A DNA stretch of 64,000 nucleotides, taken from the NCBI RefSeq assembly GCF_044324875.1, contig NZ_CP172185.1; one strand, written 5' to 3'. Each line of letters starts with the position of its first letter. The stretch's first letter is position 1. A program made the position numbers. This DNA is from Escherichia coli (GTDB taxonomy: Bacteria > Pseudomonadota > Gammaproteobacteria > Enterobacterales > Enterobacteriaceae). Positions 4,337-7,300 of this stretch are shown here, piece by piece.

Positions 4337-7300
4337 GGTTATGCGCTGATGCCTGATGCGGCGCGGGCGCGTCTTATCATACCCTGGAAGTCTGCGCCCG
4401 AATCGTAGGCCGCCTCCGCTATATTAACTGGCATTGGCAAATTACTCGTCACTACCTTTATTCATGTTTTTTTGGTCTTCATCCGGATAGTGTTTTTTTA
4501 GATATTCCAGGACGTTTTTATTGACCTTGTGTTGGGTATACACCCACCCTTTCCAGTAATCAGGCTGGTCCAGGTAAACTTCTGGCGGAATGGTAAAATC
4601 AGAAAGCGTTAACCATTCGGCTAACAGATCGGGGTTTCGTTTCTGGATTAACTGCAACAGCATAATCAGTGACATAGCTGAGGCAGGAGCCGTACTATCG
4701 CCACTTAAATATTTCCACACTGTTGACCGGTTCGAACGAAAAAGGATCGGTAGCAATGCCCGGTCCAGATTCATTTCATTAAAAATCTTCTCAAATTCAT
4801 TCATTTAAATTTTCCTGCCTGGCGTAAACCTCTTAAAAATTGAGATTTATCAAAGAAACGCATTTTAGCACACATCAGGAACCGCTTCACGTTTAGTCCA
4901 GAAACAGAATTTATTTCGCTTATCAAAACAAGTCTTTACTCTTTTTTACATTGAAAGAGCACAAAATGATTTTCGATTTTATTTATATAAGAAACATTTT
5001 TTGTTTCTTATTGGTGGTGTTTACGCTTACACCAGACAAAAATGCGCTTTACATCACACAAATGGCGGCGTAGATTTCGATTAAATTGCAACGCAGATTA
5101 ATTCTTATAACAACGTTTTACGTTGCTTATAGAAACAAATATGTGACTTACTTTGAAAGAGAAAAAATGCATGAAAACTGTAAAGCTGTCTTTACTGGCT
5201 GTCGTTGTTGCTACCGCGGTAAGTCCATCTGCGTTTGCGGGTGATACTGTTGAGGCGGCAACGACAGAATTAACGGTAATCCAGCCAGGAATGTCGCAAT
5301 CGGAAATTGATCAGAAAATTGGTCGATTTTTAGAAAGGACAGGGAATAGTGTAGCCGCACAAAATTATCTGATTGCGCATGATTACCAGACAACGACGCC
5401 TCAGGAAAATACAGCTGCTTCTCCCGTACAGCCCACCAATACGCTGAACCCGATAACCAATCAAGCGCAGACCGACCGCGACAACGGGCAGGATACCGCC
5501 ATTCAGGACGCGCAGCACGCCGCCAACTGGGCTTCACTGAAAGCTGATGACGCGTAGCACGCCATCACGGTGGCGCAGACGGATATTGATGCCAATACAG
5601 CCGCCATCACCGATACCCGTAATGATGTCTCCGCAGTGCAGTCAGACGTCACCAACATAAAAGGCGATGTCGCACATGCCCAGTCAACGGCTGACCATGC
5701 CAACGCTAACGCCAACACCGCTCTGATTAACGGCGTCAAACTTTCCGGTGCTGTGACAGAAAACAAAAACAACATCGAACAGAACCGCAGCGATATTGCT
5801 GACCAGCAGAAACTGTTGGCATCAAACGAGCAAAAACAGACCGACCGCGACAACGGGCAGGATACCGCCATTCAGGACGCACAACATGCCGCCAACTGGG
5901 CTTCACTGAAAGCTGATGACGCGCAGCACGCCATCACGGTGGCGCAGACGGATATTGATGCCAACAAAGCCGCCATCACCGACACCCGTAATGATGTCTC
6001 CGCAGTGCAGTCAGACGTCACCAACATAAAAGGCGATGTCGCACATGCCCAGTCAACGGCTGACCATGCCAACGCTAACGCCAACACCGCTCTGATTAAC
6101 GGCGTCAAACTTTCCGGTGCTGTGACAGAAAACAAAAATAATATCGAACAGAACCGCAGCGATATTGCTGACCAGCAGCAACAACTCGACGAAACCCGGA
6201 AAACCGTTGCCGCCACCGGGGATGTGCAGACTGCCGCCCGATATCAGAGCATGATTGACGCCAGACAGACAGCCGCTGCCAATGCGCAACAGGCACAAGC
6301 TGACACCCAGCAGCAACAAATGGACGATCAGCAGAAACAAATCGACGCGACGCAAAAAACGGTTTCCGCACTTGGCGATGCCCAGACCAACGCACATTAT
6401 CAAGAGATGGTTAACGCCGGACTGAGAGCACAAAATGATGCGAATGCGCGTACTGCAGCAGAACAAAAACAAAAAATAGATACTCTGGCGACTAACCAGG
6501 CAACGCAACAGCATATCGATAGTGTGCAGTACGGGGAACAAATTCAGCGTCTGGCGCAAGACTCAACACAAACGCATGAACAAATTGACAGCCTGACACA
6601 AGACGTAACCCAAACGCATCAGCAGTTAAGCAACACGCAAAAACGAGTAGCGGATAATAGCCAGCAGATTACTACGCTCAATAACCATTTCAGTTCGCTG
6701 AAAAACGAAGTTGAGGACAACCGTAAAGAAGCCAATGCGGGAACTGCATCAGCCATCGCTATCGCCTCACAACCACAGGTGAAAGCCGGTGACTTTATGA
6801 TGATGTCAGCGGGAGCGGGAACCTTCAACGGTGAATCTGCGGTGTCTGTCGGAACATCTTTTAATGCCGGAACGCATACCGTGATTAAAGCCGGTGTCTC
6901 TGCGGATACGCAATCTGATTTCGGCGCGGGTGTCGGCGTGGGATATTCTTTCTAATATTCCAATCCTCAATATAAATAAGAGCAAGGAAGCTTGCCGGGT
7001 TTCACCTCTTCATTAATTTGTACATTATTTAAGGTTAACAATGATGAAAAGCTCCATTAAATCGTTTTCCCTGCTGGCGGTTATATTACTGGCTGGCTGT
7101 AGTTCACCCACTTCCCGCATCGCAGATTGCCAGGCGCAGGGCGTCAGCCATGACACCTGTTATCTCGCAGAACAACAGCGTCAGACGGCTATTTTAAGTG
7201 CATCCGAGGCGCAGGCATTTAAAAATGCAGAAGCCGCACAACATGCCCAGGCGGCAAAGAAAGCCATTTATAAAGGATTTGGAATGACCTTTAGAATGAG

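What the first reader, a model, noticed from the sequence alone, without database searches (positions are those of the whole stretch)
4442..5170. Orphan 120-aa gene divergent from the autotransporter across an AT-rich, palindrome-containing intergenic region
The 366-bp intergenic region is very AT-rich (typical of H-NS-silenced horizontally acquired DNA) and carries a perfect 10-bp palindrome (4987-5011). The 120-aa protein has no recognisable domain and may be a local regulator of the adhesin gene.
Basis: inference. Interest (0 to 1): 0.3.

Follow-up and report, generated by a model that had tools for sequence, protein, structure and literature searches.

The report
Small HTH regulator beside adhesin operon
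The 120-aa "orphan" is gene z0640 of E. coli O-island 29, an unstudied small DNA-binding-type protein that in at least seven enterobacterial genera sits back-to-back with a small trimeric-adhesin operon, across a control region full of conserved AGAAAC repeats, so it is most likely that operon's own regulator.

Summary
There is a 120-aa gene (4442-4804, minus strand) and a 366-bp, 32% GC intergenic region. A perfect 10-bp inverted repeat lies at 4987-4996/5002-5011. The divergent gene encodes a YadA-anchor trimeric autotransporter.

The gene is not an orphan. It is z0640 of O-island 29 in EHEC O157:H7. It occurs in 1413 of 5426 complete E. coli genomes and has homologues in other enterobacterial genera.

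A confident AlphaFold model (pLDDT 90.8) gives an XRE/Cro-type helix-turn-helix domain in residues 1-70. A helical C-terminal part has no fold match.

In 9 of 11 lineages examined, the homologue faces a YadA-anchor gene, at no fewer than six chromosomal sites.

The palindrome is two of five AGAAAC copies (0.33 expected). All 30 motif columns are invariant in 11 Escherichia alleles, while the palindrome's spacer varies. Lineages with a changed recognition helix carry different repeats.

Best reading: a cognate local regulator, probably an autorepressor and repressor. No binding experiment exists.

It is a new member of a known kind. The literature names the neighbouring adhesin-like gene z0639 "GmrA, transcriptional activator". 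z0640 is the only island protein with a DNA-binding fold.

The parts
4442..4804 (-). z0640 homologue (WP_001001643.1), 120 aa: predicted XRE-type HTH protein
   Evidence: ORF. RefSeq calls it 'hypothetical protein'. The deletion-primer arms for z0640 in Yang et al. 2018 flank exactly this CDS in O157. Among E. coli alleles, codons 1-112 show up to 12 synonymous and 0 non-synonymous differences.
4595..4804 (-). N-terminal domain, residues 1-70: five-helix XRE/Cro-type HTH
4703..4729 (-). Predicted recognition helix, residues 26-34 (RSTVWKYLS); R26 is invariant across the whole family
   Evidence: Helix 26-34 in the model. F4 and R26 are the only invariant residues in the 24-sequence alignment. 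The N25-R26-S27-T28 version of the helix start co-occurs with AGAAAC repeats.
4460..4594 (-). C-terminal helical part, residues 71-115, with conserved PPEVYLxQPDYWKGW; function unknown (inferred oligomerisation or signal input)
   Evidence: High pLDDT, but no structural match covers it. It is conserved in the close subfamily and replaced in Hafnia paralvei.
4805..5170 (.). 366-bp divergent control region, 32% GC
   Evidence: Present once per genome in 1413 of 5426 complete E. coli genomes at 86-100% identity.
4987..5011 (.). Palindrome 1 (ATAAGAAACA-TTTTT-TGTTTCTTAT): candidate operator. The conserved core is AAGAAAC-N7-GTTTCT. Centre lies about -84 from the predicted adhesin-gene start
   Evidence: I8. 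The core is invariant in 11 Escherichia alleles while 5 of 7 spacer positions vary and the spacing stays fixed. It is the only GAAAC-N7-GTTTC in the 64-kb window (0.05 expected). Analogous palindromes occur in Symbiopectobacterium and Hafnia paralvei (AAGAACAT-TAA-ATGTTCTT).
4854..4859 (+). AGAAAC site 1, covering about -4 to +2 of the hand-predicted z0640 promoter (candidate autorepression site)
   Evidence: It lies in the most conserved block across genera (A3) and is invariant in 11 alleles. The position relative to the promoter is my inference.
4900..4905 (+). AGAAAC site 2 (AGAAAC-N7-ATTTCG, a degenerate palindrome)
   Evidence: (D4). CAGAAAC is invariant across genera.
5121..5137 (.). 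Palindrome 2. It is degenerate here (CGTTGCTTATAGAAACA) and perfect in O157 and most alleles (TGTTTCTTATAGAAACA). It lies about +39 to +55 in the predicted adhesin 5' leader and contains AGAAAC site 5 (5131-5136)
   Evidence: A Kosakonia counterpart, TGTTTCTAT-C-ATAGAAACA, overlaps the predicted -10/+1.
5048..5076 (+). Predicted sigma-70 promoter of the adhesin operon (TTTACA, 17 nt, TAGATT). Predicted start is about 5083, giving a leader of about 88 nt
   Evidence: Consensus scan. 27 of 29 columns are invariant in Escherichia alleles. GCTTTAC...GGCGTA.ATT is conserved across genera. The start site is not mapped.
4862..4870 (-). Hand-predicted extended -10 (TGcTAAAAT) of the z0640 promoter
   Evidence: Read. 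8 of 9 columns are invariant, and TAAAAT is conserved in six lineages. The consensus scan did not report it because no -35 is present.
5171..6955 (+). z0639 homologue (published name gmrA; Sakai ECs0548, 'Saa-like'): trimeric autotransporter with signal peptide, coiled-coil stalk and YadA anchor. In this strain it is interrupted by TAG at 5555-5557 and carries a 369-bp tandem duplication (5468-6182)
   Evidence: Primer mapping. PMC2323221.
7041..7463 (+). z0638 homologue: 140-aa lipoprotein (lipobox LLAGC), conserved partner of the adhesin gene
   Evidence: Homologues lie in the same position in Pseudocitrobacter, Lelliottia and both Hafnia species. In Pectobacterium and Symbiopectobacterium the gene is split in two.
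7460..7663 (+). 67-aa predicted membrane protein, last gene of the cassette
   Evidence: Homologues occur in Pseudocitrobacter, Lelliottia and Kosakonia.

Best explanation
The 120-aa gene is z0640 of O-island 29. It encodes a small cytoplasmic XRE/Cro-type helix-turn-helix protein, which is the dedicated local regulator of the divergently transcribed adhesin cassette. That cassette comprises the YadA-anchor trimeric autotransporter z0639, the lipoprotein z0638 and a 67-aa membrane protein. The protein recognises AGAAAC-containing sites through its helix 3 (residues 26-34). These sites are spread over the shared 366-bp region: one sits on the start of its own promoter, palindrome 1 lies upstream of the adhesin promoter, and palindrome 2 lies in the adhesin leader. 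The most likely logic is negative autoregulation plus repression or modulation of the adhesin promoter, possibly by bridging sites on either side of it. Shown: the gene is real and under strong purifying selection; the predicted fold is an XRE HTH; the gene-adhesin pairing is conserved; the motif is over-represented, invariant, and varies with the recognition helix. Inferred: that this protein is what binds the motif; the promoter positions; the sign of regulation (about 55-60% repressor, given that it regulates at all).
For: Fold:
- AF2 model with pLDDT 90.8.
- Consistent sub-threshold Pfam HTH hits in family members.

Real gene:
- 0 non-synonymous against up to 12 synonymous differences in codons 1-112.
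- Transcribed in O157 at RPKM 43.5 (Yang 2018, Table S3).

Synteny:
- The homologue is divergent from a YadA_anchor gene in E. coli, Pseudocitrobacter, Pectobacterium, Symbiopectobacterium (truncated), Lelliottia, Kosakonia, Hafnia alvei, Hafnia paralvei and a metagenome lineage.
- These lie in at least six different chromosomal contexts.
- The lipoprotein partner is also conserved.

Motif:
- 5 AGAAAC copies against 0.33 expected.
- 30 of 30 motif columns are invariant against 216 of 336 others in 11 alleles, Fisher P=3.6e-6, with a variable palindrome spacer.
- There are 4-6 copies (P<=5e-4 each) in all 7 sequences examined (six lineages, E. coli counted twice) whose helix starts NRST and that keep the adhesin.
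- There are 0-1 copies where the helix starts HRST, PRNT or PRAT. Those lineages carry other repeats instead: TTTCTGC x3, a GAACATT palindrome, and CCAATGAAGA-type repeats x3 (two exact copies plus CCATTGAAGA, seen by reading).

Sign of regulation:
- Site 1 overlaps the predicted start of z0640's own promoter.
- In Kosakonia a perfect palindrome overlaps the -10/+1 of the adhesin promoter.
Against: - The E. coli protein reaches no curated Pfam or NCBIfam threshold.
- Foldseek E-values are weak (0.1-0.2), although the probability is 1.0.
- AGAAAC units occur singly and in two opposite pairings (GAAAC-N7-GTTTC and GTTTC-N5/7-GAAAC). A rigid symmetric dimer would not read both in the same way.
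- The link between helix and motif rests on about 11 lineages and is confounded with overall divergence.
- The promoters are predictions. The consensus scan found no more promoter-like sites than in shuffles.
- All three island genes fall together on HeLa attachment, which fits an activator or an upstream common signal equally well.
- In one lineage (Enterobacteriaceae bacterium 89) and in distant homologues (L015/L016) there is no adjacent adhesin gene.
Confidence: 0.6

Rival explanations
1. [not shown]
For: - Palindrome 1 lies upstream of the predicted adhesin promoter, where activators and anti-silencers act.
- The region is 32% GC.
- z0640, z0639 and z0638 transcripts fall together on HeLa attachment.
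- Controller (C) proteins of the same fold activate from upstream sites (established knowledge of that family).
Against: - z0639 cloned with its upstream region but without z0640 complemented the island deletion, and deleting z0640 did not copy the z0639 phenotype.
- Sites also sit on the z0640 start and downstream of the adhesin promoter, which are repressor positions.
Confidence: 0.2
2. [not shown]
For: - The best structural neighbours are antitoxins and Aca proteins.
- Distant homologues lie among mobile-element-type genes without an adhesin gene.
- In Kosakonia an Xre-RES toxin-antitoxin pair lies next door.
- Low GC.
Against: - No toxin or anti-CRISPR partner: the gene is monocistronic, lying between a convergent ybbJ and the divergent adhesin gene.
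- No PADLOC or PHROG family hit.
- The pairing with the adhesin gene survives relocation to at least six sites.
- A host factor's motif should persist in Hafnia and Pectobacterium, yet it is replaced there together with the recognition helix.
Confidence: 0.13
3. The palindrome is a chance product of AT-rich sequence, or acts as an RNA hairpin or terminator, and has no DNA-level function.
For: - A perfect 10-bp inverted repeat arises in 1.4% of shuffles of this region.
- The outer bases of the arms vary between alleles.
Against: - The core half-sites are invariant in 11 alleles while the spacer varies, which is the pattern of protein-read half-sites rather than of a stem.
- The stem has only 2 G-C pairs and no following run of T, and the scan did not report it as a terminator.
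- It lies upstream of both predicted starts.
- No Rfam family matches it.
- The 40-aa ORF across it is broken in three alleles.
Confidence: 0.04

Closest known systems
z0640 of O-island 29, EHEC O157:H7 EDL933 (Yang et al. 2018, Front Microbiol 9:338, PMC5826968)
   Same: It is the same gene. The published z0640 deletion-primer arms flank exactly the orthologous CDS. The island has the same gene order between ybbJ and cueR.
   Different: The paper leaves z0640 as a hypothetical protein with no motility phenotype. It assigns the regulatory role in the island to z0639. No fold, family, operator or link to the adhesin gene was proposed for z0640.
Small two-part XRE autoregulators such as Aca2 (PDB 7VJO/7VJQ) and restriction-modification controller (C) proteins (C.Esp1396I, C.AhdI)
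   Different: There is no anti-CRISPR or restriction-modification partner; the partner here is an adhesin operon. The C-terminal part does not superpose well (rmsd 7-9 A over the full length). The sites include single units and two pairing geometries.
HTH domains of type II antitoxins HigA2 (5J9I, 8A0X) and MqsA (3FMY, 3GN5)
   Same: HigA2 gives the best Foldseek matches (probability 1.0, rmsd 2.4 A over 63 residues). The only Pfam hit is to the MqsA C-terminal HTH.
   Different: There is no adjacent toxin gene. There is no MqsA zinc-binding N-domain and no HigA2 toxin-binding N-terminal segment. Here the HTH is N-terminal.
Known regulators of trimeric autotransporter adhesins (VirF for YadA, NadR for NadA, H-NS for UpaG/EhaG; from my own knowledge, not checked here)
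   Same: Transcriptional control of a YadA-anchor adhesin gene.
   Different: Those are AraC-, MarR- or nucleoid-protein-type factors, and they do not form a conserved divergent pair with the adhesin gene. A full-text search for a trimeric autotransporter together with an XRE divergent regulator found no paper.

Membership tests
XRE / Cro-C1-type HTH DNA-binding domain (Pfam HTH_3 and relatives) | Five-helix bundle with the helix-turn-helix at helices 2-3 | tested here: met
   [not shown]
XRE / Cro-C1-type HTH DNA-binding domain (Pfam HTH_3 and relatives) | Sequence match to a curated HTH model above its gathering score | tested here: not met
   The E. coli protein hits only MqsA_antitoxin, at 13.5 bits against a cut-off of 30 (E=0.081), and has no NCBIfam hit. 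Among 24 family members the best hits are MqsA_antitoxin at 2.4e-5, Xre-like-HTH at 3.7e-5 and HTH_3 at 2.5e-4. The PDB profile search gave E>=0.46.
XRE / Cro-C1-type HTH DNA-binding domain (Pfam HTH_3 and relatives) | Sequence-specific DNA binding | not testable with these tools
   Indirect evidence only: over-represented, invariant AGAAAC sites that vary with the helix.
Type II antitoxin (HigA / MqsA type) | Co-transcribed adjacent toxin gene | tested here: not met
   The gene is monocistronic. Its neighbours are a convergent ybbJ with REP elements and the divergent adhesin gene. The same holds in the other lineages.
Type II antitoxin (HigA / MqsA type) | MqsA-type N-terminal zinc-binding domain, or a toxin-neutralising segment | tested here: not met
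   The HTH starts at residue 3. The Pfam match covers only profile positions 76-129 of 131, which is the MqsA C-terminal HTH.
Anti-CRISPR-associated (Aca) or phage repressor | Located in a phage or mobile element next to acr or lysogeny genes | tested here: not met
   No phage genes flank it. There are no significant PHROG hits (best E=0.013, unknown function) and no PADLOC hits.
O-island 29 gene z0640 | Orthologous position and sequence in EDL933-type O157 genomes | tested here: met
   The primer arms map to the CDS borders. Residues 1-112 are 100% identical between the window and O157.
H-NS-silenced horizontally acquired DNA | GC content below the genome average | tested here: met
   The intergenic region is 32% GC and the 4651-5250 stretch is 33-38% GC. 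The adhesin coding region itself is 45-57% GC.
H-NS-silenced horizontally acquired DNA | H-NS occupancy and de-repression in an hns mutant | not testable with these tools
   No ChIP or expression data were found. z0639 and z0640 appear only in 5 and 2 searchable papers, none about H-NS.
Trimeric autotransporter adhesin (for the divergent gene z0639, published as 'GmrA') | Sec signal peptide, coiled-coil stalk and C-terminal YadA membrane anchor | tested here: met
   YadA_anchor at 45 bits against a cut-off of 22.7 in both the window and the O157 proteins. The N-terminus is MKTVKLSLLAVVVATAVSPSAFA. Only coiled-coil-type weak hits otherwise, and no DNA-binding family at E<=1. RefSeq annotates it as 'YadA family autotransporter adhesin'. 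Sakai ECs0548 is listed as 'Saa-like protein'.

The most novel reading that the evidence does not exclude
Probability: 0.3. Interest if true: 0.55.

Novelty: new member of a known kind. Interest (0 to 1): 0.4.

Why it matters
O-island 29 is carried by about a quarter of complete E. coli genomes, including O157:H7, O55:H7, UTI89 and E2348/69. It is cited in EHEC reviews as encoding a motility regulator.

The island's only protein with a DNA-binding fold is the unstudied z0640. It is locked in a conserved divergent pair with a trimeric-adhesin operon and a set of invariant repeats. This gives a concrete, cheap-to-test model for how the adhesin is controlled.

It also flags that the published assignment of a transcription-factor role to z0639 deserves re-examination, because z0639 has a signal peptide and a YadA anchor.

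More generally, it defines a small, Pfam-less XRE subfamily dedicated to adhesin cassettes in Enterobacterales.

Tried and rejected
- Curated family searches (Pfam, NCBIfam, PHROGs, PADLOC) gave nothing significant for the E. coli protein.
- A PDB sequence-profile search gave only E>=0.46.
- The profile search of 1.84 billion representatives found only 24 relatives. One was a 2772-aa repeat protein (P0033) hit five times by the C-terminal half of the profile. I treated this as a likely repeat artefact and did not follow it.
- Rfam found no RNA family in the intergenic region, only REP-derived naRNA4 at 4250-4383.
- Terminator reading of the palindrome: rejected, because the stem is AT-rich, there is no T-run, and the scan did not report it.
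- Small-ORF reading: the 40-aa ORF at 4951-5073 has stops in TUM13936, E1V33 and E. whittamii.
- Toxin-antitoxin and Aca readings: no partner gene.
- A SadB-like helper role for the lipoprotein: no PDB sequence match, left open.
- The AlphaFold-database fold library was unavailable.
With the close alignment it returned only 4 species-representative loci, so the synteny survey rests on 11 lineages gathered through exact-protein look-ups.
- OmpR-, EvgA/BvgA-, RcsB- and PhoP-like readings of the GAAAC / TTTCTTA units were considered from memory. I dropped them because spacing and orientation do not fit and the motif changes with the local regulator.
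Full report
**Where we are.** The window is 100% identical to the chromosome of E. 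coli strain C4, a cow isolate. The finding lies in a small island between ybbJ (3798-4256, plus strand) and cueR (7667-8074, minus strand), which are adjacent in K-12-type genomes. The island holds, in order:
- the 120-aa gene (4442-4804, minus strand);
- a 366-bp intergenic region;
- a YadA-anchor gene (5171-6955, plus strand);
- a 140-aa lipoprotein gene (7041-7463);
- a 67-aa membrane-protein gene (7460-7663).

**Observation check.**
- The intergenic region is 32.0% GC, against 55.9% for the window.
- The inverted repeat ATAAGAAACA/TGTTTCTTAT (4987-4996/5002-5011) is perfect, with a 5-nt loop.
- A perfect 10-bp inverted repeat arises in 1.4% of dinucleotide-preserving shuffles of the region. 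The palindrome alone is therefore only moderately unusual.
- Its arms are two of five copies of AGAAAC in 366 bp. The expectation is 0.33, and none of 5000 shuffles reached five. The whole 64-kb window has only 20 copies.

**Identity of the gene.** A full-text search led to Yang et al. 2018 (PMC5826968) on O-island 29 (OI-29) of EHEC O157:H7 EDL933, a 2,643-bp island with z0638, z0639 and z0640. I mapped the paper's lambda-Red homology arms onto an O157 chromosome.
- The z0640 arms flank exactly the 120-aa CDS.
- The 'gmrA' (z0639) arms flank exactly the 338-aa YadA-family autotransporter CDS.
- The z0638 arms flank the lipoprotein CDS.

So the finding's gene is z0640. The paper treats it as a hypothetical protein whose deletion does not affect motility and which 'requires further characterization'. 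No other searchable paper deals with it. It is transcribed in O157: RPKM is 43.5 in DMEM and falls to 0 on HeLa attachment, together with z0638 and z0639 (Table S3).

**It is a real, constrained gene and not an orphan.**
- The intergenic region occurs once per genome in 1413 of 5426 complete E. coli genomes, at 86-100% identity.
- In nine E. coli alleles, residues 1-112 are identical. There are up to 12 synonymous and 0 non-synonymous differences, and all amino-acid changes fall in the last eight residues.
- The gene is also present in E. whittamii and in Escherichia sp. E1V33.
- Homologues at 61-83% identity occur in Pseudocitrobacter, Symbiopectobacterium, Kosakonia, Kluyvera and Leclercia.
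- More distant homologues (32-48% identity) occur in Lelliottia, Pectobacterium, Hafnia and an unnamed Enterobacteriaceae strain.
- The family is small: a profile search of 1.84 billion representative proteins found 24 members.

**Fold.** With a 24-sequence alignment, AlphaFold2 gave a confident model (mean pLDDT 90.8, pTM 0.78).
- Residues 1-70 form five helices.
- Sequence evidence is consistent but sub-threshold. The E. coli protein hits only the HTH half of MqsA_antitoxin (E=0.081). Family members hit MqsA_antitoxin, Xre-like-HTH, HTH_3 and HTH_26 with best E-values of 2e-5 to 3e-4.
- Residues 71-115 are helical and confidently modelled, but match nothing.
- R26, at the start of the predicted recognition helix, is one of only two invariant residues in the family.

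**Gene neighbourhood.** The homologue is divergently transcribed from a YadA_anchor gene in nine of eleven lineages for which I recovered flanking DNA. These lie in different chromosomal settings:

| Lineage | Chromosomal setting |
|---|---|
| E. coli | ybbJ / cueR |
| Pseudocitrobacter | fetA / qmcA |
| Pectobacterium and Symbiopectobacterium | yfaE / qmcA; the adhesin gene is split or truncated in some |
| Lelliottia | two adhesin genes in tandem |
| A metagenome lineage | (not named) |
| Kosakonia | (not named) |
| Hafnia alvei and H. paralvei | ribC / MFS transporter |

The lipoprotein is part of the unit in seven lineages and the small membrane protein in four. The exceptions are Enterobacteriaceae bacterium 89, where no adhesin gene is called, and distant homologues that sit among mobile-element-type genes. 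No toxin, anti-CRISPR or phage gene accompanies the gene.

**The control region within Escherichia.**
- In eleven Escherichia alleles, all 30 columns of the five AGAAAC sites are invariant, against 216 of 336 other columns (Fisher P=3.6e-6).
- In palindrome 1 the core AAGAAAC...GTTTCT never changes and the 7-nt spacing is fixed. Five of the seven spacer bases vary (ATTTTTT, CATTTTT, GGATTAA, TATTTTT, CAATTAA and others). This is the pattern expected for protein-read half-sites, not for an RNA stem.
- A second palindrome, TGTTTCTTATAGAAACA, is perfect in O157, UTI89, E2348/69 and others. It is degenerate in the window strain (5121-5137).

**The control region across genera.**
- The blocks around site 1, site 2, a TTTACA-17-TAGATT promoter-like element (5048-5076) and site 5 are conserved.
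- AGAAAC is over-represented (4-6 copies, P<=5e-4 each) in every lineage whose recognition helix starts N-R-S-T and that keeps the adhesin.
- H. alvei (HRST) has one copy but three TTTCTGC.
- H. paralvei (PRNT) has none, but has the palindrome AAGAACAT-TAA-ATGTTCTT.
- Pectobacterium (PRAT) has none, but has three CCAATGAAGA-like repeats.
- This co-variation argues that the local protein, rather than a shared host factor, reads the repeats. The sample is small and the effect is confounded with overall divergence.

**Likely mechanism.** I predict an extended -10 (TGcTAAAAT, 4870-4862 on the minus strand) for z0640. AGAAAC site 1 then covers about -4 to +2, a position for autorepression.
- The adhesin promoter prediction places its start near 5083. 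That puts palindrome 1 at about -84 and palindrome 2 at about +39 to +55.
- In Kosakonia a perfect palindrome overlaps the -10/+1.
- Two results from Yang et al. bear on the sign of regulation. Their z0639 plasmid starts at the window-equivalent position 4852 and lacks z0640, yet it complemented the island deletion. The z0640 deletion did not copy the z0639 phenotype.
- Taken together, this favours a repressor or autorepressor over an obligatory activator. The sign is still an inference.
- Singly occurring units and the two opposite pairings mean the binding mode (monomer, flexible dimer or higher oligomer) is open.

**What it is not.** It is not:
- an RNA family;
- a terminator;
- a conserved small ORF;
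- a toxin-antitoxin, Aca or defence gene by context or by family.

H-NS silencing remains a reasonable but untested add-on.

**A conflict in the literature.** The gene published as 'GmrA, transcriptional activator of fliA' is z0639.
- It has a Sec signal peptide (MKTVKLSLLAVVVATAVSPSAFA) and coiled-coil-type weak hits only.
- It has a YadA membrane anchor at twice the Pfam cut-off, and no DNA-binding family at E<=1.
- RefSeq names it a YadA-family autotransporter adhesin. Ogura et al. 2007 list the Sakai orthologue ECs0548 as a 'Saa-like protein'.

I cannot judge the experiments. By sequence and predicted fold, however, z0640 is the only DNA-binding-type protein in OI-29.

**Verdict.** The object is a new, uncharacterised member of a very well-known kind: a small XRE-type local regulator with candidate operators. 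Interest is moderate, raised somewhat by the clean comparative footprint and by the conflict with the published annotation of the island.

Noticed in passing
window 5171-6955 (stop at 5555-5557; repeat 5468-6182): The trimeric autotransporter gene is interrupted in this strain by an in-frame TAG; the second repeat copy reads Q at that position. It also carries a 369-bp tandem duplication (1.9 copies, 97% match). RefSeq annotates only the last 350 aa. A 579-aa ORF is intact in strain TUM13936, and the O157 allele is 338 aa. The regulator gene stays intact in every allele examined.
   Followed up: partly
window 5171-6955; L002 6862-7878: The published 'GmrA' (z0639), described as a transcriptional activator that binds the fliA promoter, is this signal-peptide and YadA-anchor protein according to primer mapping. 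Pfam finds no DNA-binding domain in it. The literature annotation and the sequence features disagree.
   Followed up: partly
window 7041-7663: The 140-aa lipoprotein and the 67-aa membrane protein travel with the adhesin gene in several genera. In Pectobacterium and Symbiopectobacterium the lipoprotein is split into a 64-68-aa lipoprotein piece and a 115-aa secreted piece. They may be helpers for adhesin biogenesis. There is no Pfam or PDB sequence match.
   Followed up: partly
window 4250-4383: A cluster of REP elements (Rfam naRNA4, 66 bits against a gathering score of 59.5) fills the gap between ybbJ and the 3' end of z0640, at the left edge of the island. No integrase or IS element flanks the island.
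   Followed up: no
window 8071-32036: Beyond cueR lie a type I secretion adaptor, an ABC transporter and an intact 6875-aa repeat adhesin (annotated in O157 as the SiiEA/BapA-related adhesin, where it is a pseudogene with an internal stop). So two separate adhesin systems flank cueR in this strain.
   Followed up: no
L003-L005, L006, L017-L018 versus the window: In three genera the cassette sits next to the qmcA-ybbJ operon, but at different junctions: downstream of ybbJ in Escherichia and upstream of qmcA in Pseudocitrobacter and Pectobacterium. This suggests an old association with that neighbourhood followed by rearrangement, rather than free insertion.
   Followed up: no
window 5077-5087: TCGATTAAATT, directly after the predicted -10 of the adhesin promoter, resembles the high-affinity H-NS nucleation motif tCGATAAATT as I recall it from the literature. 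It is present in Escherichia alleles but not in other genera.
   Followed up: no
L019/L020 4675-5585: In Kosakonia an Xre-like-HTH/Xre_MbcA_ParS_C antitoxin and RES toxin pair lies immediately downstream of the z0640 homologue. It is an unrelated toxin-antitoxin system that could mislead automated context-based annotation.
   Followed up: no
protein P0033 (2772 aa, metagenome): The C-terminal half of the family profile (positions 56-104) matched five stretches of a giant repeat protein at E=3.5e-7. This is probably a repeat or composition artefact, but I did not examine it.
   Followed up: no
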